Assembly: GCA_964351495.1 (NCBI GenBank)
Contig: CAYGOC010000012.1
Location: 823-64,822 of the forward strand
Direction of reading: 5' to 3'
DNA length: 64,000 nucleotides
Source: an uncultured bacterium
GTDB taxonomy: Bacteria > Chlamydiota > Chlamydiia > Chlamydiales > SM23-39
The translations under genes and the position numbers were made by a program. Every line of letters starts with the position of its first letter. The stretch's first letter is position 1. Under the pieces are notes generated by a model that searched no databases, had not been told where the DNA came from, and worked only from the letters and a program-made list of their open reading frames with translations. Shown here one piece after another: positions 976-47,379 of this stretch.

Positions 976-2835
976 ATGCAAACTATGTCTTATGGGGCCT
1001 GGCCCTCCAGTTTTTCTATAGAAAATCTAGTTTCAAAAAAGCCCTCTTTTAGTTTTTTACAAAAAGAAGGATCTAAACTGTATTGGATAGAAAAAAGGGG
1101 AGAGGAGGGAGGAAGGTCTACTTTATGCTCTCTTGATGTGCAGACAAAAAAGATAAGAGAGGAAACTGTAGGGTATGACTTAAGATGTAGAGTGAATGAA
1201 TATGGGGGATCTCCCTTTCATGTTGCCGGGAATCTTTTGTTTTTTACCGATAGTAGTGGGGCCATTCACATAAAAGAAGAGGGTCTGATACGTCTTTTAC
1301 ATAAAAGCAAAGAGAAACGATACGGCTCTTTTTGTTTTGATGCCAAAAGGAAAAGACTCTATGCCGTATGTGAAGACGTAGTAGAAAACTCACAGAAAAT
1401 TGTCTCTATAGATTTACAAGGAAAAGAGCGTGTTTTAGTAGAGGGACAAGATTTTTATGCTTCTTTGGTTTTAAGTCCCAAGCAAGATAGGCTCGCTTTT
1501 ATATCTTGGAATCATCCTCATATGCCTTGGGATGAGAGCTCTTTGCAGCTTCTATTTTTCTCCTCAGAAGGGGAGGTGGAAAAGGAGGCGTATATTTTAC
1601 AAGAAGAAAATGTATCGGTGTTTCAGCCTTCTTTTTCTGAAGAGGGAGATCTGTATTTTATCTCAGATGAGACCGGGTGGGGAAATTTATACTGCTATGC
1701 AAGAGAAAAAAAAATAGCGCTACTTCCAAAAAAGGTAGAGTTTTCTCAGCCGGCTTGGGTTATGGGGCTTTCTCGATATGCACTTATTCCTAAAGAAAAA
1801 GGGGTAGATGTTTTTTGTGTTTTTACGGAAAAAGGAAGAGATTCCTTGGCTCTTTTTTCAGAAAGAGAAAAATCTTTTCACAAAATAGCAGATACGATTT
1901 TTCAGGCAAGTTATCTTCAGGCAGATGGACAGTATGGGTATTTTGTAGGTGCTTCACCTTCTATAGAGGAATCTCTTTTTGCTATTTCTTGGGAAGGTAA
2001 CAAAAGAAAGCTTCTTGTTTCCTCCTCTGAAACAGAAAGCTTCCCCTTAGGAGAAGAGGTTTTTATAGAAAAACGAGGGGGAGAAAAGATATACGGGTTT
2101 TTCTATCCCCCTCTGAGCTTGTCTTGCAAAGGGCCTCCTTCTGAAAGACCTCCGTTAATCGTAAAATGTCATGGAGGGCCTACGGGGCAGGCTTATAATG
2201 TATACAATAGAGAAATCGCTTTTTGGACTTTAAAGGGGTTTGCTGTTTTAGAGGTAAATTATAGGGGTAGTTCCGGTTATGGAAAAGCCTATCAACAGGC
2301 TCTAAATAAGAACTGGGGCATATTTGATGTGAACGACGTTTGTGATTTGGCTCTTTCCATGGCAGAAAGAGGGCTCGTAGATAAAGATAGGATGGCTATA
2401 AAAGGGAGGAGTTCCGGAGGGTATACGGCTCTTAGTGCAGCTTGCTTTCGAAAGGTGTTTTCTGCTTGTGTCAGTTATTACGGAATTTCTGATTTGGAGG
2501 CTTTAGTAAAAAATGGACATAGGTTTGAGCTTTACTATACCCAAAATTTAGTAGCTCCTTATCCAGAAAAAAAGGAGATATATAAAGAAAGATCTCCTCT
2601 TTATCATACCTCTCATATTACATGTCCTATTTTGCTTTTTCACGGCAAAGAAGACAAAGTAGTTTTACCGGAGCAGTCTCTAGAACTCTATCAGAAGCTC
2701 AAAAAACAAAAAAAAGAGGTGGATCTCTTTCTTTTTGAAGAAGAGGGACACTCTTTTCGCAAAAAAGAGACATTAGAAAAAGCCTTTTTTTTAGAGTATG
2801 AATTTTATAAAACTTGTTTTGCGGTCCCTTCATGA
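976..2835 (+). CDS. S9 family prolyl oligopeptidase / acylaminoacyl peptidase
   Basis: HGGPT, NYRGSSGYG, nucleophile GRSSGG, HGKEDKVV and EEGHSF catalytic-triad motifs; N-terminal propeller region. Confidence 0.92.
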   Translation: MQTMSYGAWPSSFSIENLVSKKPSFSFLQKEGSKLYWIEKRGEEGGRSTLCSLDVQTKKIREETVGYDLRCRVNEYGGSPFHVAGNLLFFTDSSGAIHIKEEGLIRLLHKSKEKRYGSFCFDAKRKRLYAVCEDVVENSQKIVSIDLQGKERVLVEGQDFYASLVLSPKQDRLAFISWNHPHMPWDESSLQLLFFSSEGEVEKEAYILQEENVSVFQPSFSEEGDLYFISDETGWGNLYCYAREKKIALLPKKVEFSQPAWVMGLSRYALIPKEKGVDVFCVFTEKGRDSLALFSEREKSFHKIADTIFQASYLQADGQYGYFVGASPSIEESLFAISWEGNKRKLLVSSSETESFPLGEEVFIEKRGGEKIYGFFYPPLSLSCKGPPSERPPLIVKCHGGPTGQAYNVYNREIAFWTLKGFAVLEVNYRGSSGYGKAYQQALNKNWGIFDVNDVCDLALSMAERGLVDKDRMAIKGRSSGGYTALSAACFRKVFSACVSYYGISDLEALVKNGHRFELYYTQNLVAPYPEKKEIYKERSPLYHTSHITCPILLFHGKEDKVVLPEQSLELYQKLKKQKKEVDLFLFEEEGHSFRKKETLEKAFFLEYEFYKTCFAVPS

Positions 2836-16142: not shown

Positions 16143-16553
16143 ATGACAGAAGGACTGAAAGAAATAGGAAAAAGGTTTCGTTCTAAAAGGGAGGAAATGC
16201 ATCTTTCTTTAAAAGAGGTAGAAAATGCTACGTCTATTCGGCAAAACTATTTGGAGTCTATTGAAGAGGGGAATTCAGCGCATTTTCTTTCTCCTGTGTA
16301 TACCATTGGTTTTATCAAACAATATGCTACTTTTTTGGGATTTGATGGAGAAAAAATCATAAAAGAATATCCACAAGCTTTTAAAGCTTTAAATCAGGAA
16401 AAACAAAGCTTTGAATATGGTATTGGCACCTTGGAAGTAAGAGGGGCTCATCAAAGAGGGGTAAGAAAAGCGCAAAACTGGTTTTGGTTAGGATTGGGTA
16501 TTTTAGTCATTTTAGGAGCTTGGTATTTTGGAAAGTGGATTGGAGCTTTCTAA
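16143..16553 (+). CDS. rodZ: RodZ-like helix-turn-helix membrane protein
   Basis: HTH (SLKEVENATSIRQNYLESIEEG; GFIKQYATFLG) plus C-terminal TM; divergent from rnhC as in Chlamydia. Confidence 0.82.
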   Translation: MTEGLKEIGKRFRSKREEMHLSLKEVENATSIRQNYLESIEEGNSAHFLSPVYTIGFIKQYATFLGFDGEKIIKEYPQAFKALNQEKQSFEYGIGTLEVRGAHQRGVRKAQNWFWLGLGILVILGAWYFGKWIGAF

Positions 16554-17471
16554 GTGAGGGTTTTTAAGATTTTTTTTCTTGGAATGATCATGGGAGTATG
16601 TGATTTGATTCCGGGGATTTCTGGGGGAAGCTTTGCTTTTATATTGGGATTTTACCCGAGGTTAATTAGTAGCTTAAATGCTTTTAATTTTTCTGAGGTG
16701 CGCTTTTTTCTAAAAAACAAAAAATTTTCAGAAACTGTTTCTTCTTCTTTTTTCTTTTTATTTTGGCTTTTTTTAGGGATGGGATCTGCTTTTGTTTTGC
16801 TTTCTTTTTGGGTAGGATATCTTTTTAAAGATCCCATTTATAGAGTCTATTTATATTCTCTTTTCTTTGGGGTTTTGTTGGGTTCTATTCGGCAAAGAAG
16901 AAAGAGGGTCGTTTTGTGGAATAAAAAACGGTTTCTCTTTTTTCTTTGCGGATTTTGTCTTTCTTTTTCTATTACCTTTTTGCAAGGGGGGGATTTTCTT
17001 TTTTTAGAAGAGAAAGGCTTTTCGGTGTTTTTAGTTTTATCCGGAATGCTTACGGTATTTGCTATGCTTTTACCGGGTATTTCAGGAAGCTATATCCTTC
17101 TTCTTTTAGGAGTGTATATTCCTGCCTTAGAGGCTTTGTCTTCTTTATGGACTTTGCAAAAGGAGGCCTTTTTATTTTTAGGTCAACTAGCTTTAGGGGC
17201 CTTTTTAGGGTTTTTTCTATTTGCGCGTATTTTGACCTTTTTACAAAAAAAACAAGGGGAAAGTGTAGAGGCAAGTCTTCTGGGTTTTTTACTGGGATCT
17301 TTGGGGTTTATTTGGCCTTACGGTTCTTACATACATACTCTTCACAGGGGAACCCAAGTTTCTCTTACGAATCATGAGCTTGTTTTTTCTTTTGTTTTTT
17401 TAGTTTTGGGTTATTTCTTATTACAAAGGACCTCTAAAAAGGGAGAAAAAACGCTTCCTTTAATAGATTGA
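16554..17471 (+). CDS. DUF368 family membrane protein (putative undecaprenyl-phosphate translocase)
   Basis: Duplicated PGISG motifs (DLIPGISGGS, MLLPGISGS); stop codon supplied by the inserted element. Confidence 0.9.
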   Translation: MRVFKIFFLGMIMGVCDLIPGISGGSFAFILGFYPRLISSLNAFNFSEVRFFLKNKKFSETVSSSFFFLFWLFLGMGSAFVLLSFWVGYLFKDPIYRVYLYSLFFGVLLGSIRQRRKRVVLWNKKRFLFFLCGFCLSFSITFLQGGDFLFLEEKGFSVFLVLSGMLTVFAMLLPGISGSYILLLLGVYIPALEALSSLWTLQKEAFLFLGQLALGAFLGFFLFARILTFLQKKQGESVEASLLGFLLGSLGFIWPYGSYIHTLHRGTQVSLTNHELVFSFVFLVLGYFLLQRTSKKGEKTLPLID

Positions 17472-17637
17472 CAGCTCTCCATGGCTAAAGCCAAGGGATT
17501 CCTAATTCACAGAGAACAGCCAGAGGACGTAGCTTGGTTATTGCAAAAACCCAAAGAGGACTTTTACGTTTTTTACAACCCATGTCCTCCGGTCTTACAT
17601 TCTCTCCAAAGGCTTAACTTCCCGAGTGTCCCTCGGT
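17468..17637 (-). ncRNA. TnpB-type omegaRNA (reRNA) scaffold
   Basis: ACCGAGGGACACTCGGGAAG..GCCTTTGGAGAG..GTAAGACC..TGAATTAGGAATCCC..GTCAA pattern; CCGAG/CTCGG hairpin whose GACA loop can pair with terminal TGTC; AGAGAA/TTCTCT and CCGGAGGAC/GTCCTCTGG stems. Confidence 0.78.
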
Positions 17638-17744
17638 TAGACCTTTAAAGGTGGTTAGGATATACCATTTTGGTATCTTTAAAAAAAGGAAAAAAGCGGC
17701 TTATATCCCCACGGGCTAAAGCCGGGGGTTTTAGGCCGTCAGCG
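17468..17744 (-). mobile_element. Non-autonomous IS200/IS605-family element (MITE/PATE), 277 bp
   Basis: Minus strand: target TTAT, then left end with AAAA + CCCCCGGCTTTAGCCCGTGGGG hairpin; right end GAAT + CCCTTGGCTTTAGCCATGG hairpin ending in TCAA; no transposase or TnpB ORF; excision rejoins ATA GAA TAA. Confidence 0.9.
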
Positions 17745-17807
17745 ATAAGCCTCTTGCATAAAAGAATTAGGATCTTTATCCTTCGGCAAAGGAAATAGGG
17801 TGAGATT

Positions 17808-19706
17808 ATGGAGTGTTTGGGCGATTTCATTTTGTTAAAAGAGATAGGAAAAGGGCCTTTTTCTACTACCTATCTTGCAGAACAAAGGTTTATCAAAAAG
17901 ACGTTTGTCTTAAAAGTGATAGAAAAAGAACTTTCTTCTGATGCGTTTTTTTTAGATCGTTTTGAAAGATTAATCTCCTCTATTGCTTCTTTAGATCATC
18001 CCTCGATTGTAAAGGTACACAACATATCTTCGCATGAAGGAACCTACTTTATTGTTATGGACCCTTTTGTAGACTCTGTGGGAGAGACGATGAATTTAGA
18101 TCGGTTTTTAGATCTAAAAGGAAAAGTCTTAACTGAAGCAGAAATAGAGTCTATTTTATTACAAGTAGCTGGGGCGCTTGACTACGCTCACTCTATTTCC
18201 TTTGATGAAGGATATCTAACACACGGCGGTCTGAAGCTTTCTAATTTATTGATAGCGAAAAAAGAGAAAGAGCTAAGAGTGTATCTTTCTGACTTTGGCT
18301 TTTCTAGGATTCTTTCAAAAGGGCTTTGTTTAGCCAGAAAATGTGAAAACTTTTCCTCGGCTCTTCATGAAAAAAAAGAAGGGTTTACCTCAGAAAGAGA
18401 CTACCTATTATACCGCTCTTTTTTGAGAGACCTTCATTTTCTGGCTCCGGAACAAAAAGACTTTGAAGAAGAGGAGGTGCCCGACCCTTCTGTGGATGTT
18501 TATGCTTTTGGAGTTTTAGCCTACTTTTTGATAACAAAAACCTTTCCTGAGGGGTGCTTTGATCTAATTCGGATGGGAAATTTTTCCTACAACCTTTCTT
18601 GGGATCAGCTTGTTTTTAGATGTCTACAAAAAGATCCAAAAAATAGGCCTTCTTCTTTAAGTAAGGCTATGGAGGAGATTCGAAAAGAAAAAAAAGGAAG
18701 CTATCCTTGGAGTGAGATAGGAAAAAAGATAGAAGATGCAATGCAGATGTCTTTTTCTTTCGGAGAAAGAAAAAAGCTTGCAGAAGAAACTAAAGAAACT
18801 CCCAAAGAAACGTCTTTGAAGTTTTATCCTCCTTCTGAAGAATCAAGCCTAAAACCTCTTTTAAAGCCGCAAGAAATTCATAGACCTCAATATGAACCCG
18901 ATCCAGGTGCTATTTTTCAAAGAGAACTTACCGTTTCTAGGTATCAACCTGCAGAAGTAGAGGTAAGAGAAGTCGAGCCTATTTTAACTGAGATGGTAAT
19001 TATACCGGGAGATACTTACTTTAGAGGGAGCAATCACGGTGCAAGAGATGAAATGCCGAGACATGCCGTTCTTTTATCGAGCTTTGCGGTGGACATTCAT
19101 CCTGTAACCAATGAGCAGTTTGTCCGTTTTTTAACCGCCATGGGAGGAGAAAAAGATGGAAATAATAACGATATTATCCGTCTTAGAGACTCTCGTATTA
19201 AAAGAAGTGGAGGAAAGCTGATCATTGAATCTGGGTATACCAAACATCCGGTAGTAGGAGTTACTTGGTATGGGGCTACCGCTTATGCTAAATGGGTAGG
19301 AAAAAGGCTTCCTACAGAGGCAGAATGGGAAGTAGCTTCTTATAGCGGAAAAAAAGACGGGATGATCTATCCGACGGGAGAAGATATAGAAAGATCTAAA
19401 GCCAATTTTTTCAGTTCGGATACCACCTCTGTCATGAGCTATCCTTGTAATGAGTATGGGATCTATGACATGGCGGGAAACGTATATGAGTGGTGTCAAG
19501 ATTGGTATGCATATAACTACTATGATACCTCTATGCAAGAGCCGGAAAATCCGCAAGGACCTTCTCAAGGGGTTTACCGTGTTTTAAGAGGAGGTTGCTG
19601 GAAAAGCTTAAAAGAAGACCTTCGCTGCTCTCATAGAAATAGAAATAATCCCGGGACCGTAAATGGGACTTATGGGTTTCGTTGTGCAACAGATGTCACT
19701 TCCTAA
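17808..19706 (+). CDS. pkn1: Ser/Thr kinase-like domain fused to FGE-sulfatase (SUMF1) domain, Pkn1 type
   Basis: IGKGPFS, VLK, DFG, APE, DVYAFG; C-terminal RLPTEAEWE, DMAGNVYEWC, RVLRGG, GFRC. Confidence 0.9.
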   Translation: MECLGDFILLKEIGKGPFSTTYLAEQRFIKKTFVLKVIEKELSSDAFFLDRFERLISSIASLDHPSIVKVHNISSHEGTYFIVMDPFVDSVGETMNLDRFLDLKGKVLTEAEIESILLQVAGALDYAHSISFDEGYLTHGGLKLSNLLIAKKEKELRVYLSDFGFSRILSKGLCLARKCENFSSALHEKKEGFTSERDYLLYRSFLRDLHFLAPEQKDFEEEEVPDPSVDVYAFGVLAYFLITKTFPEGCFDLIRMGNFSYNLSWDQLVFRCLQKDPKNRPSSLSKAMEEIRKEKKGSYPWSEIGKKIEDAMQMSFSFGERKKLAEETKETPKETSLKFYPPSEESSLKPLLKPQEIHRPQYEPDPGAIFQRELTVSRYQPAEVEVREVEPILTEMVIIPGDTYFRGSNHGARDEMPRHAVLLSSFAVDIHPVTNEQFVRFLTAMGGEKDGNNNDIIRLRDSRIKRSGGKLIIESGYTKHPVVGVTWYGATAYAKWVGKRLPTEAEWEVASYSGKKDGMIYPTGEDIERSKANFFSSDTTSVMSYPCNEYGIYDMAGNVYEWCQDWYAYNYYDTSMQEPENPQGPSQGVYRVLRGGCWKSLKEDLRCSHRNRNNPGTVNGTYGFRCATDVTS

Positions 19707-44902: not shown

Positions 44903-45871
44903 TTGAGTACCGAGCTCCCTTTTAATCCTTTCCCATTTTTGGTGGGATCTCATAGACAAACGATTTTGGGCTCTTTTTTTACCTGGAAAAGGGGGGTCCG
45001 CTCTAAAACCCACCTTGTAGATCTTCCTGATAAAGATCAGCTAGCTATAGAAGTGGCGATTCCTAAAAAGTGGAAAGAAAAAGATCCTGTAGTGGTCATG
45101 GTACACGGCCTTTGTGGCTCGCACAACTCCCCTTATCTAGTAAGGCTGAGTAAGAAGCTATATAAGACAGGGGTAGCTTCCGTAAGGGTTAACTTGAGGG
45201 GGTGTGGCTCCGGAAGAGGTAGGGCTAAACAGATTTACCATAGTGGAAGATCGGAAGATGTTTTAGAGGTTTTAAAGTATATAAAAGAGTTAATGCCAAG
45301 CTCCCCCGTAACTCTCATGGGTTTTTCTATGGGAGGAAATATAGTCTTAAAACTAGCAGGAGAATTAGGGCCTTTAGGAAGAGAATACTTAAGTAGGGTT
45401 ATCTCTCTTTCTCCTCCTACAGATCTTTATGCGAGTATTCAGCTTCTAGGGACAGAACAGAACCGATTTTATGAGAGATATTTTTTACGTCTTCTCAAAG
45501 CTACTGTTCGCTATCGAGAGAAAAAATTCCCCGACGTTCCCAGGATAGACTTTCCAAGAGATATGAATCTTATGGTTTTTGATGAGATTTATACAGCCCC
45601 TCAAGGGGGCTTTAAAAGTGCTATGGATTACTACGAAAGAGCCAGCTCTGTATGGGTTATTCCTGAGATAGAGATCCCTTGTTATATTTTGTTTGCTGAA
45701 GATGACCCTATTATTTCCTCTACCTCTTTAGATGGAATAAAGCTTCCTCAGAATATACAGGTATTTAAAACCAAGCACGGGGGACACTTAGGATTTTTGG
45801 GAAGTCCATTGAAAGGGCGATTTCATTGGATGGATGAGGTTCTTTTGAAGTGGGCCTTGGAAAACGATTAG
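44903..45871 (+). CDS. Alpha/beta hydrolase, YheT family
   Basis: HRQTI, HGLCGS, GFSMGGN, DDP, GGHLGF. Confidence 0.9.
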   Translation: MSTELPFNPFPFLVGSHRQTILGSFFTWKRGVRSKTHLVDLPDKDQLAIEVAIPKKWKEKDPVVVMVHGLCGSHNSPYLVRLSKKLYKTGVASVRVNLRGCGSGRGRAKQIYHSGRSEDVLEVLKYIKELMPSSPVTLMGFSMGGNIVLKLAGELGPLGREYLSRVISLSPPTDLYASIQLLGTEQNRFYERYFLRLLKATVRYREKKFPDVPRIDFPRDMNLMVFDEIYTAPQGGFKSAMDYYERASSVWVIPEIEIPCYILFAEDDPIISSTSLDGIKLPQNIQVFKTKHGGHLGFLGSPLKGRFHWMDEVLLKWALEND

Positions 45872-47379
45872 TTTGTCTCTGCTTCCGCTTCAGCGGGAGC
45901 ATCTTCTTCTTCTTTTTCTGAAAACTGCTTATTTAAAGTTCTTACAGAATAAACCCAAAACGCTACCGTAACAGCTACAAAAGGAATTAAAAGGGAAGTA
46001 ATGGATAAAACCGATCCTGTACTAGATAGGGTAATTAAAACAACCTGAATCCAGGAAGAGCCCGACTTTCCAAGCCGAGATCCTACCACATCTACCGCTG
46101 CTTTACCTTTTACTTTAGATTCATGGTCTAAAGGAATAAAGGCCATCTCTTTAGTAGGGTCAAAAAAGCAGTGCTTCATCACCTTGCTAATTACATTTTG
46201 AAAGGCTCCGAAAAAGACAATCAAGGCCAATGGGGTGATACTTAAGTAGGTGCTTAAAAAGCCTAAGCGCTCTTGAAAAAGGAGTAACATTAAAAATAAA
46301 AATCCTGTTCCTCCTACTATAATCGGAGTTATTTGAGCACTAAAGTGCCAGCCCAAGATCCGGATTATATTCCCACTTAAAAAGAAGGCTGTAATTAAAG
46401 AGGCAAGTCCTGTGATGGAGATGATTTTCCCAAAAAAGGCCTGGTACTCGTAAGGAGTAGGGTAAGCAAGGCGTAAGTTTGCCTTCCAGCTAACTTCAAT
46501 TAGATTAATAGCAAGACCATACCCTATTACCATCATGGCAAGACATTTTAAAGGCTTGGAAGAAATAATTTTTTTGAGCGCTTGCCCCAGTGATAAGGTG
46601 GTTTTTTTCTCCATTGCAAAAGAGTCTTTAGGAGGAAGGTATTGGGGATTACTCAGTACATTTTTAGTAAGCCAGTAATGTAAAAGCATGGTGATAATGC
46701 CAAATAGCACCACACAACAGATCTGCCACTGAAGGGCATAACAAAAATCAGAAGAGCCATATTTTCTGGCAAAAAACGCAACTAAAGGACCTGTTAAAAT
46801 GGCAGCAGCATCTCCGGCTGCTATGAACAGAGTATAGTAACGCTTCGCTTCTTTTATGGAGTTAATCTGGTTTGCAAACCCCCAAAAAAGGAGAAAAAAT
46901 CCAATCCCTCCCCAAAGCTCTGAGGTTACAAAGAAAAGAGTCTGCATCCAGTTTCGGTAGATAGCAATCCAGTTTTGGTACTTTACTCCTACCTTAGTCA
47001 AAAGCCAGTCAGAGGTTAGGCTGGGAGATAGCAGCTCTTTATTTGGGTATAAAACAAAAGCATACAGTAAAAAGAAAAGTAGAAAAAAGCTTAAAATCCC
47101 GTAAAAAAGAGTAGACCTACGGAACAAGTTGGATAGCTTGGAATAAAAGGCTGTTGCCAAAAAGGCAATAGGGAGAACTACCCATCCTTTTAAGATAGGA
47201 ATTACCTCTGCACCAGAGCCTTTTTCTGTAATTATGAAGGTGTCTTTCAAGGAGAGCAAGATGCTAAAATTGAAAGAAATAAAAAACTTCATGAAAAGAA
47301 GCGGAACAAACTTGCGCAGTTCAAAACCATGAACGGGCCACAGCCTTTTACGCCACTTACTGAAGGGAGGTGTTTCCAT
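45868..47379 (-). CDS. NTT-family nucleotide transporter (ATP/ADP translocase family)
   Basis: ELWG, FWGFANQI, EAKRYY, FDPTKEMAFIPLD, KGKAAVDV..RLGKSG. Confidence 0.95.
   Translation of the reverse strand: METPPFSKWRKRLWPVHGFELRKFVPLLFMKFFISFNFSILLSLKDTFIITEKGSGAEVIPILKGWVVLPIAFLATAFYSKLSNLFRRSTLFYGILSFFLLFFLLYAFVLYPNKELLSPSLTSDWLLTKVGVKYQNWIAIYRNWMQTLFFVTSELWGGIGFFLLFWGFANQINSIKEAKRYYTLFIAAGDAAAILTGPLVAFFARKYGSSDFCYALQWQICCVVLFGIITMLLHYWLTKNVLSNPQYLPPKDSFAMEKKTTLSLGQALKKIISSKPLKCLAMMVIGYGLAINLIEVSWKANLRLAYPTPYEYQAFFGKIISITGLASLITAFFLSGNIIRILGWHFSAQITPIIVGGTGFLFLMLLLFQERLGFLSTYLSITPLALIVFFGAFQNVISKVMKHCFFDPTKEMAFIPLDHESKVKGKAAVDVVGSRLGKSGSSWIQVVLITLSSTGSVLSITSLLIPFVAVTVAFWVYSVRTLNKQFSEKEEEDAPAEAEAETN

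What the first reader, a model, noticed from the sequence alone, without database searches (positions are those of the whole stretch)
17468..17744. Protein-free IS200/IS605 mini-element carrying an apparently intact TnpB omegaRNA
Seen: on the minus strand the 277 bp read as TTAT | left end with hairpin | ~60-bp spacer | ~170-nt structured RNA | right-end hairpin | TCAA, with no tnpA or tnpB. The tetranucleotides at the hairpin feet fit the cleavage sites: GAAT with TCAA, and AAAA with TTAT. Established: IS608 TnpA pairs GAAT with TCAA and AAAG with TTAC, and TnpB guide RNAs derive from the right end with the guide taken from flanking DNA. Seen: the scaffold stems still pair (CCGAG/CTCGG, AGAGAA/TTCTCT, CCGGAGGAC/GTCCTCTGG) and the GACA loop complements the terminal TGTC, as expected for the reRNA pseudoknot. 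Inference: a stand-alone mobile guide-RNA cassette that borrows TnpA and TnpB in trans, with predicted guide starting UCUAUUAAAGGAAGCG and a TTAT-like TAM. If multi-copy, it would be a dispersed guide set in a chlamydial genome.
Basis: partly seen in the sequence, partly recalled or inferred. Interest (0 to 1): 0.85.

Follow-up and report, generated by a model that had tools for sequence, protein, structure and literature searches.

The report
Orphan mini-IS605 element carrying guide RNA
This is a 277-base, gene-less leftover of an IS605-type jumping gene that still carries the folded guide-RNA part of its lost nuclease; such elements are already known in other bacteria, and this copy sits alone in a genome where no enzyme to move or use it was found.

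Summary
Window 17468-17744 (minus strand) is missing, exactly and with nothing else changed, from a same-genus genome. There the joint reads TTAT|TCTATC. The insert lies 3' of TTAT, ends in TCAA, makes no target duplication, and has IS608-like subterminal hairpins.

Its core (17468-17655) is a TnpB omegaRNA scaffold:
- A covariance model built from protein-free copies hits the 3' ends of five intact tnpB genes in related genomes.
- The scaffold keeps a vestigial TnpB C-terminal reading frame.
- 20 of 24 base pairs covary.
- The layout matches the solved ISDra2 omegaRNA.

This genome holds one copy plus three end fragments. No tnpA or tnpB was found. The promoter-like site kept by three relatives' copies was not found here. 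No RNA data exist. It is most likely a stranded relic.

Gene-less IS605 elements that encode omegaRNAs are in print: PATEs, and the H. pylori miniIS605 with HPnc0580. This is a new member of a known kind.

The parts
17745..17748 (-). TTAT: target tetranucleotide for insertion. By the IS605-family rule it is also the expected TAM of the cognate TnpB.
   Evidence: Retained at the empty site in G001. TTAT in 6 of 7 copies that reach the left boundary, TTGT in 1. The TAM role is inferred.
17696..17744 (-). Left end (LE). Imperfect-palindrome hairpin at 17728-17707 with a TTTA loop. Tetranucleotide AAAA (17732-17729) lies at its 5' foot, 16 nt from the cleavage point.
   Evidence: Sequence; conserved across copies. 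IS608 layout taken from passages of PMC3201880.
17656..17695 (-). T-rich spacer and degraded promoter region. It aligns with the TTGTAA/TTGCTA-18-TAAAAT site of relatives' copies. The own copy has TTTTTT and TATATC at those positions.
   Evidence: Alignment. Promoter-like sites in 3 of 3 relatives' copies scanned. None on the minus strand here.
17468..17655 (-). TnpB omegaRNA scaffold (extent of the covariance-model hit). This is the long variant, with an extended inner stem.
   Evidence: R1 hit of 214.5 bits; the model includes this sequence. Homologous hits overlap the stop codons of 5 intact tnpB genes. Covariation.
17622..17636 (-). Helix 1, CCGAG/CUCGG hairpin with loop GGACA (17631-17627). 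It corresponds to stem 1 of ISDra2. The loop is the proposed 5' strand of the pseudoknot.
   Evidence: All 5 pairs change on both sides across 30 sequences. Pseudoknot counts.
17576..17635 (-). Vestigial TnpB C-terminal reading frame (RGTLGKLSLWRECKT...), closed by a stop.
   Evidence: Translation. 11 of 15 residues identical to residues 373-387 of the intact 402-aa TnpB of G024:C146, E 1e-6 for that single comparison.
17501..17612 (-). Long-range stems. CCUUUG (17612-17607) pairs with 17509-17501. AGAGAAU (17605-17599) pairs with 17517-17511. CCGGAGGAC (17592-17584) pairs with GUCCUCUGG (17528-17520). These enclose an apical hairpin at 17567-17543.
   Evidence: Folds. Compensatory changes. 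The interior is variable: long and short variants.
17476..17498 (-). Right-end hairpin. It is the TnpA recognition palindrome at the DNA level and the last stem of the RNA, with a UUUA tetraloop at 17489-17486 (positions -22..-19). GAAT lies at its 5' foot (17501-17498).
   Evidence: Sequence. Helices 6 and 7 covary. ISDra2 has a UUUA tetraloop at -20..-17.
17468..17472 (-). Element terminus GTCAA. TCAA is the right cleavage site. GUC (positions -5..-3) is the proposed 3' strand of the pseudoknot.
   Evidence: Boundary fixed by the empty site. TCAA in 5 of 7 copies. Pseudoknot counts.
17452..17467 (-). Flanking 16 nt (TCTATTAAAGGAAGCG). This would be the guide if the RNA is made and reads through. 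It is antisense to the last codons of the upstream host gene.
   Evidence: Sequence. The guide role is inferred from the family rule. No RNA data.
16554..17471 (+). Host gene, undecaprenyl-phosphate translocase-like (PF04018), 305 aa. The insertion hit its last sense codon: GAA became GAT (E to D). Its stop is now the TGA formed by the element's terminal TCAA.
   Evidence: Pfam 174 bits. The G001 ortholog ends ...PLIE-TAA and the own copy ends ...PLID-TGA, both 305 aa.
17808..19706 (+). Downstream host gene, a Ser/Thr kinase fused to an FGE-sulfatase domain (632 aa). It is not part of the element.
   Evidence: Pfam.

Best explanation
The 277 bp at 17468-17744 (minus strand) are a non-autonomous IS200/IS605-family element of the IS608/IS605 type, that is a PATE or 'mini-IS605'. 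It arose from a tnpB-bearing parent by an internal deletion. The deletion removed the protein-coding part and kept the left end, the former tnpB promoter region, the last ~170 nt of the tnpB region, which encode the TnpB omegaRNA scaffold, and the right end.

It was inserted as single-stranded DNA by a Y1 TnpA acting in trans. It landed 3' of a TTAT inside the last codon of an undecaprenyl-phosphate-translocase-like gene, without target duplication. Its terminal TCAA gave that gene a new stop codon.

In genomes that hold a cognate TnpB, such a cassette would be transcribed into an RNA made of scaffold plus ~16 nt of flank. That RNA would direct TnpB to the TTAT-flanked empty site. This step is inferred from the family, not shown here.

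In this genome the element is a single copy. No TnpA or TnpB was found, and the promoter-like site kept by relatives has decayed. It is therefore most likely a stranded, immobile and non-functional relic.

Shown: the insertion, its boundaries, homology to tnpB 3' ends, and the covarying structure. Inferred: transcription, guide use, the TAM, and present inactivity.
For: 1. A precise empty site in same-genus G001 fixes the boundaries and the target.

2. The family has the same boundaries in relatives. The DNA search hit 14 of 61 genomes. The model search hit 24 of 103 genomes of the family.

3. G028:C24 is a decayed full-length element with the same left and right ends. Its tnpB reading frame runs into the scaffold.

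4. Model R1 was built from 7 cores, 6 of them protein-free. It hits at the 3' ends of 5 ORFs of 356-430 aa. The ORF stop lies 44-50 nt before the end of each hit. All 5 are TnpB by Pfam, carrying OrfB_IS605 plus Cas12f1-like_TNB.

5. The own scaffold still reads RGTLGKLSLWRECKT. That is 11 of 15 residues identical to TnpB residues 373-387 of G024.

6. Structure:
- In the MAFFT alignment of 7 sequences, 6 of 24 pairs show compensatory changes.
- In the model-fitted alignment of 30 sequences, 91.1% of cells are paired against 74.3% in shuffles (0 of 500 reach it). 20 of 24 pairs change on both sides. Slid controls reach at most 56.4%.
- The long variant has 49 pairs, 10 of them compensatory.

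7. The layout matches ISDra2 (passages of PMC10097598).
- Here a 5' hairpin has a loop that can pair with positions -5..-3. In ISDra2, -5..-3 pair with -105..-103 in the stem-1 loop.
- A long-range stem uses positions -36..-34. ISDra2 uses -35..-32.
- The interior stem is variable.
- The last hairpin has a UUUA tetraloop at -22..-19. In ISDra2 it is at -20..-17.

8. Rfam's best hit is HPnc0580, for the own copy (28.9 bits) and for G010:C92 (32.6 bits). HPnc0580 is the RNA of the H. pylori miniIS605 (passage of PMC6531487).

9. Orphan state:
- Pfam Y1_Tnp and OrfB_IS605 gave 0 matches. The TnpB zinc-ribbon family gave 13.6 bits against a cut-off of 26.3.
- tblastn with 6 TnpB and 2 TnpA sequences from relatives gave a best E of 0.12.
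- Apart from the full copy there are only 3 end fragments.
- No minus-strand promoter-like site was found here. A positionally conserved one is present in 3 of 3 relatives' copies scanned.
Against: - No curated RNA family reaches its gathering score.
- There is no expression evidence of any kind.
- The pseudoknot rests mostly on conserved bases: 86.2% paired against 82.2% in shuffles, with 14 of 500 shuffles as high. Those bases are also constrained as the TnpA cleavage site.
- R1 contains the right-end hairpin, a DNA-level feature of the whole IS family. Part of each hit is therefore not RNA-specific.
- Alignment A3 is fitted to the model and the copies are kin, so the shuffle figures overstate support.
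- Promoter scans are consensus matches, with 0.5-0.8 expected by chance per region.
- The genome is a 24-contig assembly, 97.84% complete. Insertion sequences are often left unassembled or unbinned, so tnpA and tnpB are 'not found', not 'absent'.
- All stems of the own copy are still intact. That fits a recent arrival or selection as well as it fits a relic.
- In G010, none of the 6 further R1 hits that I fetched lies next to a tnpB. The link between cassette and cognate TnpB within one genome is therefore thin.
Confidence: 0.8

Rival explanations
1. The cassette is still in use here. It is transcribed and served in trans by a TnpA and TnpB that belong to the same population but were not assembled or binned, for example on small repeat contigs or a plasmid. 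That would make it a working stand-alone guide RNA.
For: All helices of the own copy are intact. Left and right ends are complete. The genome has left- and right-end fragments, showing past family activity. The assembly has 24 contigs and is 97.84% complete. In relative G035, copies sit at contig ends, which shows that such repeats break assemblies.
Against: No tnpA or tnpB signal in any of the 24 contigs. One copy only. The promoter-like site of relatives was not found here. The nearest copy found elsewhere is only 80% identical, so there is no sign of recent spread. In contigs of four DNA runs of one study the element is in place, with no empty-site joint. Contigs drop rare variants, so that last point is weak.
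Confidence: 0.1
2. The element has been taken over by the host. The structured RNA, or the structured DNA, now serves a TnpB-independent role. Examples would be an antisense RNA against the 3' end of the translocase-like gene, or a barrier between the two same-strand genes.
For: The element supplies the stop codon of the upstream gene, and its putative RNA would run antisense into that gene. The structure is intact with no nuclease found in the genome.
Against: Same-genus G001 manages without it at the same locus. No terminator-like site on either strand. No conserved locus association: copies in relatives have unrelated flanks. No expression data.
Confidence: 0.04
3. The core is not an RNA gene. 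Its conservation reflects single-strand DNA structure needed for transposition, or leftover coding constraint from tnpB.
For: IS200/IS605 elements move as single-stranded DNA and need the end hairpins (passages of PMC3201880). Part of the scaffold was once coding.
Against: Compensatory changes occur in internal stems far from the TnpA sites, and in copies that have no reading frame. The architecture mirrors a solved omegaRNA. In IS608 only the subterminal palindromes, guide tetranucleotides and cleavage sites are described as needed. G-U type pairs (U-G and G-U are the commonest types at three columns) fit RNA better than DNA.
Confidence: 0.04

Closest known systems
Helicobacter pylori miniIS605, a non-autonomous element carrying the non-coding RNA HPnc0580 (Rfam RF02269)
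   Same: It is a gene-less IS605-type element that contains a structured small RNA. RF02269 is the best Rfam hit for the own core (28.9 bits, covering helix 1 and the following ~75 nt) and for a 72%-identical relative (32.6 bits). A passage of PMC6531487 states that the miniIS605 contains HPnc0580.
   Different: Both hits are below the gathering score of 37, so it is not a member by Rfam's rule. The host phylum differs. The target here is TTAT; that IS608 uses TTAC is from PMC3201880. I found no paper that calls HPnc0580 an omegaRNA (2 papers hold the name).
PATEs (palindrome-associated transposable elements) of IS605-family elements in Geobacillus stearothermophilus, Meers et al. 2023 preprint PMC10055086
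   Same: Minimal elements with left and right ends and no protein genes. The authors say they 'often encode omegaRNAs' that must be acted on in trans by TnpB encoded elsewhere (passages).
   Different: In that genome many copies coexist with tnpA and tnpB. Here there is one copy and neither gene was found. I saw passages only; Extended Data Fig. 2e and the supplements were not available.
ISDra2 TnpB omegaRNA (reRNA) of Deinococcus radiodurans, cryo-EM structure, PMC10097598
   Same: The order of elements and their positions counted from the 3' end match: a 5' hairpin whose loop can pair with -5..-3, a long-range stem at about -35, a variable internal stem, and a last hairpin with a UUUA tetraloop near -20.
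   Different: I tested no sequence similarity. The scaffold here is ~170 nt against 116 nt, because the inner stem is extended; the short variant in relatives is ~125 nt. The ISDra2 TAM is TTGAT against TTAT here. The triple helix and non-canonical pairs cannot be judged from sequence.
IS608 of H. pylori (TnpA mechanism), PMC3201880
   Same: Insertion 3' of a tetranucleotide without duplication. The right end closes with TCAA. There are subterminal imperfect palindromes, each with a 4-nt guide at its 5' foot. Here AAAA faces TTAT where IS608 has AAAG facing TTAC: the change C to T is matched by G to A.
   Different: The distances differ slightly. The cleavage site is 16 nt from the left-hairpin foot against 19 nt, and 8-9 nt from the right-hairpin foot against 10 nt. 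There are no tnpA or tnpB. That the IS608 right guide is GAAT is recalled; it is not in the text I read.

Membership tests
IS200/IS605-family non-autonomous element (PATE / mini-IS605) | Insertion 3' of a specific tetranucleotide, no target-site duplication, precise boundaries | tested here: met
   The empty site in G001 reads TTAT|TCTATC. Exactly 277 bp are extra in the window.
IS200/IS605-family non-autonomous element (PATE / mini-IS605) | Subterminal imperfect palindromes at both ends, with the right end closing in the cleavage tetranucleotide (TCAA in IS608) | tested here: met
   Hairpins at 17728-17707 and 17498-17476, with TCAA at 17471-17468. Both are conserved and covary across copies.
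IS200/IS605-family non-autonomous element (PATE / mini-IS605) | Four-base guide at the 5' foot of each palindrome that matches its cleavage site | tested here: inconclusive
   AAAA and GAAT stand at the expected places. Most relatives have AATA at the left end with the same TTAT target. The pairing rules are partly non-canonical, so sequence alone cannot settle it.
IS200/IS605-family non-autonomous element (PATE / mini-IS605) | No protein-coding gene inside | tested here: met
   Only ORFs of 42-61 aa overlap the element. 0 of 3 match Pfam at E <= 0.1.
IS200/IS605-family non-autonomous element (PATE / mini-IS605) | Related copies with the same ends, and autonomous relatives with tnpA or tnpB | tested here: met
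   Copies in 14 of 61 and 24 of 103 genomes. A decayed parent in G028:C24. Intact tnpB with a homologous 3' end in 5 genomes. tnpA in G010 and G028.
IS200/IS605-family non-autonomous element (PATE / mini-IS605) | A TnpA in the same cell that can mobilise it | tested here: not met
   No Y1_Tnp match in G000. tblastn with 2 TnpA sequences from relatives gave nothing at E <= 1. This bears on present mobility, not on what the element is.
TnpB omegaRNA (reRNA) | Encoded at the 3' end of tnpB, overlapping the ORF end and running to the right-end boundary | tested here: met
   Met through homologues. R1 hits span the stop codons of 5 intact tnpB genes and 1 decayed one. The own copy keeps a vestigial TnpB frame.
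TnpB omegaRNA (reRNA) | Conserved secondary structure supported by covariation | tested here: met
   6 of 24 pairs compensatory. 20 of 24 pairs change on both sides, with 91.1% of cells paired. 10 of 49 pairs compensatory in the long variant.
TnpB omegaRNA (reRNA) | Pseudoknot between the nucleotides just 5' of the guide and the loop of the 5' stem | tested here: inconclusive
   GAC(A) pairs with (U)GUC in 86.2% of cells against 82.2% in shuffles (14 of 500). Slid controls reach at most 44.8%. Few changes are on both sides. The topology equals that of ISDra2.
TnpB omegaRNA (reRNA) | Transcript exists and carries ~16 nt of flank as guide | not testable with these tools
   No listed run is on record as RNA.
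TnpB omegaRNA (reRNA) | Binds TnpB and directs cleavage next to the TAM | not testable with these tools
   This needs biochemistry. No TnpB was found in this genome.
Rfam RF02269 (HPnc0580) | Score at or above the gathering threshold of 37 bits | tested here: not met
   28.9 bits for the own copy and 32.6 bits for G010:C92. No hit at E <= 1 on 8 further loci, which include tnpB-linked copies.

The most novel reading that the evidence does not exclude
Orphan omegaRNA cassettes may persist with intact structure in small genomes of this family of intracellular bacteria that have no TnpB found (this genome; G035 has many copies and only a TnpB remnant). They would persist because the RNA has a TnpB-independent use. 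Here that could be an antisense transcript over the 3' end of the translocase-like gene whose stop codon the element now supplies. Alternatively they could act as pre-laid guides that bias where an incoming TnpB-bearing element is kept.
Probability: 0.05. Interest if true: 0.55.

Novelty: new member of a known kind. Interest (0 to 1): 0.25.

Why it matters
The finding is ordinary for the field. Gene-less IS605 derivatives that keep the guide-RNA module are described in Geobacillus and, in effect, in H. pylori.

It still has three modest uses.

1. It is a clean, base-resolved example of such an insertion. There is an empty site in a sister species, and the stop codon of a host gene was replaced by the transposon end.

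2. It defines a covarying omegaRNA family. A covariance model built here finds it in 24 of 103 related genomes, with long and short variants. The family is linked to five intact TnpB genes that could be tested as compact RNA-guided nucleases with a short TTAT-type TAM.

3. It suggests that Rfam's H. pylori sRNA family HPnc0580 is the 5' part of a TnpB omegaRNA. I found no paper that states this link in the searches run.

Tried and rejected
Rfam at gathering thresholds found nothing in the element.

The plasmid collection, searched by blastn in distant mode with the core, gave no match.

Sequencing runs: no RNA holder was listed. Five DNA metagenome runs from two studies hold the stretch. One may be the source of this DNA, and one holds only 0.06 of the sampled words.

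Laying contigs of four runs of one study showed the element in place with 0 other letters and no joint. Both junctions are bridged in X1 and X3. In X4 each junction is bridged by a separate contig. In X2 only the left junction is bridged by 31 letters or more. Contigs cannot show rare excision, so this gives no evidence either way.

The weak TnpB zinc-ribbon hit at G000:C3:1889-1948 (13.6 bits) lies near a right-end-like match. I suspected a decayed tnpB. Reading it shows a small CxxC...CxxC protein downstream of a solo right-end hairpin, in the wrong order for tnpB followed by a right end. Rejected.

The full-length elements of G010 with tnpA and tnpB (C39, C80, C91, C89) were candidate parents. 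They share only the general right-end pattern, and blastn finds no match to the element at E <= 1e-3. They are other family members, not the parent.

Ten further model hits (6 in G010, 3 in G035, 1 in G028) were fetched to look for tnpB upstream. None of the 10 has one. The single tblastn line is a 17-residue match inside the scaffold.

RF02269 was tried on 8 more loci, including tnpB-linked copies. It gave no hit at E <= 1. Only sub-threshold RAGATH-18 and HgcC hits appeared.

A REP/RAYT-type repeat, a native sRNA or riboswitch, and a terminator were considered. They are rejected on the empty site, the homology to tnpB 3' ends, and the absence of a terminator-like site.

Chlamydial origin was not verified by name for this genome. 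The window encodes an NTP/NDP exchange transporter (433.6 bits). In addition, 3 of the 5 titled contigs that carry the long-variant core are titled 'Chlamydiae bacterium'.

Papers: I read passages only, in find mode, of PMC10055086, PMC8322730, PMC6531487, PMC10097598, PMC3201880 and 10.64898/2026.09.24.754181. All other titles were seen as search listings only. No supplements or figures were seen. Extended Data Fig. 2e of Meers et al. may show PATE omegaRNAs in more detail.
Full report
**What is there**

Read on the minus strand, the sequence runs as follows:
- TTAT at 17748-17745.
- A left end with the imperfect palindrome CCCC-C-GGC/TTTA/GCC-CGT-GGGG at 17728-17707, preceded by AAAA.
- A T-rich spacer.
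- A ~170-nt core.
- A right-end palindrome TCCC-TT-GGC/TTTA/GCC-AT-GGAG-A at 17498-17476, preceded by GAAT.
- GCTG and TCAA, ending at 17468.

The element lies between two plus-strand host genes. One is an undecaprenyl-phosphate-translocase-like protein (PF04018, 305 aa, 16554-17471). The other is a Ser/Thr kinase fused to an FGE-sulfatase domain (632 aa, 17808-19706). Nothing inside the element codes for protein. Only ORFs of 42-61 aa overlap it, and 0 of 3 match Pfam.

**It is an insertion, with boundaries known to the base**

The window is G000:C12:823-64822. The same-genus genome G001 has the two flanks joined directly. Window 16501-17467 aligns to L015 534-1500 (71%). Window 17745-19000 aligns to L015 1501-2752 (78%).

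On the minus strand the G001 joint reads ...CCTTAT|TCTATCAAAGG. So the element went in 3' of TTAT, with no duplication.

On the plus strand the G001 gene ends CCT TTG ATA GAA TAA (PLIE*). The window's gene ends CCT TTA ATA GAT TGA (PLID*). The insertion split the last sense codon, and the reverse complement of the terminal TCAA provides the new stop. The protein keeps 305 residues.

**It belongs to a family of mobile mini-elements**

A DNA search of 61 genomes (G000 and 60 relatives) hit 14, G000 included.
- Full-length copies: G034:C69 (80% identity), G010:C9 (76%) and G010:C92 (72%).
- Partial copies cut by contig ends in G010.
- The 3' two-thirds in G053, which is in another family of the same order.
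- Many separate left-end and right-end matches in G028 and G035.

In the alignment of 9 copies (A1) similarity begins at the target tetranucleotide. This is TTAT in 6 of 7 rows that reach it, and TTGT in 1. Similarity ends at the right terminus. This is TCAA in 5 of 7 rows, TGAA in 1 and TCAC in 1. The flanks are unrelated.

This matches the IS608 scheme as I read it in passages of PMC3201880:
- Cleavage and insertion occur 3' of TTAC.
- The right end closes with TCAA.
- There are subterminal palindromes.
- Four-base guides stand at their 5' feet, with the left guide AAAG.

Here AAAA faces TTAT, so the C-to-T change in the site is matched by a G-to-A change in the guide. Most relatives have AATA there with the same TTAT target, so I rate this feature as consistent, not proven. 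That the right guide of IS608 is GAAT is my recollection; the word is not in the text I searched.

**The core is the omegaRNA module of tnpB**

Four lines of evidence support this.

1. A decayed full-length relative. G028:C24 has the same left and right ends with a frameshifted tnpB between them. The tnpB frame (...DRDINAAKNILTVGLAGLAFGENGRLGIENSM*) runs straight into the sequence that aligns with the core of the mini-elements.

2. A covariance model. I built model R1 from 7 cores (6 protein-free copies and the G028:C24 3' end) and searched 103 genomes of the family, G000 included. 24 genomes have hits. Of the 30 hit loci I could inspect, 5 have an ORF of 356-430 aa whose stop codon lies inside the hit, 44-50 nt before its end. 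All 5 are TnpB by Pfam, with OrfB_IS605 plus Cas12f1-like_TNB, and 3 also have HTH_OrfB_IS605. The 157-aa G028 remnant matches too. One more ORF (L062, 158 aa, open to the contig start) looks like a TnpB C-terminus but was not tested.

3. A vestigial reading frame. The window's scaffold, read in frame, gives L*RSNRGTLGKLSLWRECKTGGHGL*. RGTLGKLSLWRECKT matches residues 373-387 of the intact 402-aa TnpB of G024:C146 at 11 of 15 positions (E 1e-6 for that one comparison). The RNA module is therefore a piece of a former tnpB 3' end.

4. Rfam. Its best sub-threshold hit is HPnc0580 (RF02269). It scores 28.9 bits at 17558-17648 on the minus strand and 32.6 bits on G010:C92, against a gathering score of 37. 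[quoted passage not shown] PMC8322730 lists HPnc0580 among uncharacterised sRNAs from the 2010 transcriptome. So the closest curated RNA is itself the RNA of a mini-IS605.

**Structure**

- On a MAFFT alignment of 7 cores, RNAalifold predicts 24 pairs, 6 with compensatory changes. An example is CCGAG/CUCGG against CCGUC/GACGG, CCGCG/CGCGG and CCGUG/CACGG.
- On the model-fitted alignment of 30 hits, 91.1% of cells pair against 74.3% in shuffles (0 of 500 reach it). 20 of 24 pairs change on both sides. Sliding the partner by 1-3 columns drops pairing to 43-56%. The alignment is fitted to the model and the copies are related, so these figures lean towards the structure.
- Six long-variant copies give 49 pairs, 10 compensatory, including the CCGGAGGAC/GUCCUCUGG stem.
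- The interior of that stem is the variable part. G028:C24, G010:C10 and the G035 copies replace ~55 nt with a short hairpin.

**Comparison with a solved omegaRNA**

Passages of PMC10097598 describe the ISDra2 omegaRNA as a 116-nt scaffold with four stems and a pseudoknot.

| Feature | ISDra2 | This element |
|---|---|---|
| Pseudoknot | -5..-3 pair with -105..-103, inside the stem-1 loop | GUC at -5..-3 can pair with GAC in the loop of the 5' hairpin |
| Long-range stem (stem 2) | -35..-32 with -81..-84 | AGG at -36..-34 pairs with CCU of GCCUUUGG |
| Inner stem (3b) | Flexible | Variable (long and short variants) |
| Last hairpin | UUUA tetraloop at -20..-17 | UUUA loop at -22..-19 |

The pseudoknot itself is only compatible. 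86.2% of cells pair against 82.2% in shuffles (14 of 500 as high), and slid controls reach at most 44.8%. Variation is mostly one-sided (A or G opposite U), and the bases double as the TnpA cleavage site.

**State in this genome**

G000 has 1,492,400 bases in 24 contigs and is 97.84% complete.
- It holds one full copy and three fragments: a solo right-end hairpin at C3:~2196-2232, a right-end remnant at C8:~70310-70365, and a left-end remnant at C1:~106594-106630.
- Pfam Y1_Tnp and OrfB_IS605 find nothing. The TnpB zinc-ribbon family finds 13.6 bits, below the cut-off of 26.3, in an unrelated small protein.
- tblastn with 6 TnpB and 2 TnpA sequences from relatives gives a best E of 0.12.
- Three of three relatives' copies scanned have a promoter-like site, TTGTAA or TTGCTA, 18 nt, TAAAAT. 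It ends 3 nt before the first base of the model hit. The own copy has TTTTTT and TATATC at the aligned places, and the scan finds nothing on its minus strand. These are consensus matches, with 0.5-0.8 expected by chance per region.
- The nearest copy found elsewhere is 80% identical.

Together this points to an old, stranded insertion. Because insertion sequences are often unassembled, tnpA and tnpB are 'not found' rather than 'absent'.

**Relatives**

G010 has 11 model hits and both tnpA and tnpB. None of its 4 tnpB loci is among the model hits, and none of the 6 further hits I fetched has a tnpB upstream. G035 (99% complete) has 7 hits, several at contig ends, only a 27.8-bit TnpB remnant, and no tnpA match. 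Cassettes clearly outnumber cognate nucleases in these genomes.

**What is known, and novelty**

Meers et al. (preprint PMC10055086, passages) report gene-less PATE-like IS605 elements. [quoted passage not shown] The H. pylori miniIS605 with HPnc0580 is an older case.

My searches for HPnc0580, miniIS605, PATE with TnpB, and Chlamydiae with IS605 or TnpB turned up no description of this family in chlamydiae, and no paper equating HPnc0580 with an omegaRNA. Those are small additions.

**Verdict**

It is a new member of a known kind, of low to moderate interest.

Noticed in passing
window 17469-17471 (plus strand); L015 1502-1504: The transposon end supplies the stop codon of the host translocase-like gene. 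TGA comes from the element's TCAA and replaces the ancestral TAA, which came from the TTAT target. The last residue changes from E to D and the length stays at 305 aa.
   Followed up: yes
Rfam RF02269 against window 17558-17648 (-) and L025 1596-1694 (-): The H. pylori sRNA family HPnc0580 aligns with helix 1 and the next ~75 nt of this TnpB omegaRNA scaffold. HPnc0580 is therefore probably the 5' part of the omegaRNA of the miniIS605. I found no paper that says so.
   Followed up: partly
G000:C3:2196-2232, C8:70310-70365, C1:106594-106630 (all minus strand): Three solo end fragments of the same IS family lie elsewhere in the genome: two right ends closing in TCAA and one left end after TTAT. 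They are traces of earlier activity in this lineage. The C8 fragment lies beside sequence that looks like a tRNA gene; I did not check that with a tRNA tool.
   Followed up: partly
L060 (G094:C108) 1689-1896 (+): A HEARO RNA (RF02033, 137.2 bits, above the gathering score of 83) starts about 30 nt after the end of a model hit at 1501-1658. From recollection, HEARO is the IscB-type guide RNA. Two different guide-RNA modules therefore seem to sit side by side.
   Followed up: no
L035 (G010:C80) 1327-1446 (-): A group II intron D1-D4 domain (RF01999, 93.9 bits) lies directly downstream of an intact 354-aa tnpB, where the omegaRNA and right end would be expected.
   Followed up: no
G035: C7:6-242, C32:24-87, C25:12-75, C31:19523-19586, C29:3532-3671: A ~237-bp short variant of the mini-element is multi-copy in G035 and sits at several contig ends. 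That genome shows only a TnpB remnant and no tnpA match.
   Followed up: partly
window 45868-47376 (-): An NTP/NDP exchange transporter (TIGR00769, 433.6 bits, above its cut-off) is encoded here. Together with the 1.49-Mb genome this fits an obligate intracellular lifestyle.
   Followed up: no
L033 1730-1796; L065 1552-1616; L070 1542-1585; L061, L062, L079, L070 (HgcC): Sub-threshold Rfam hits to RAGATH-18 (26-28 bits, gathering score 44.9) and HgcC (21-23 bits, gathering score 50) fall on the tnpB 3' ends of relatives. They hint that these curated families are also TnpB guide-RNA relatives.
   Followed up: no
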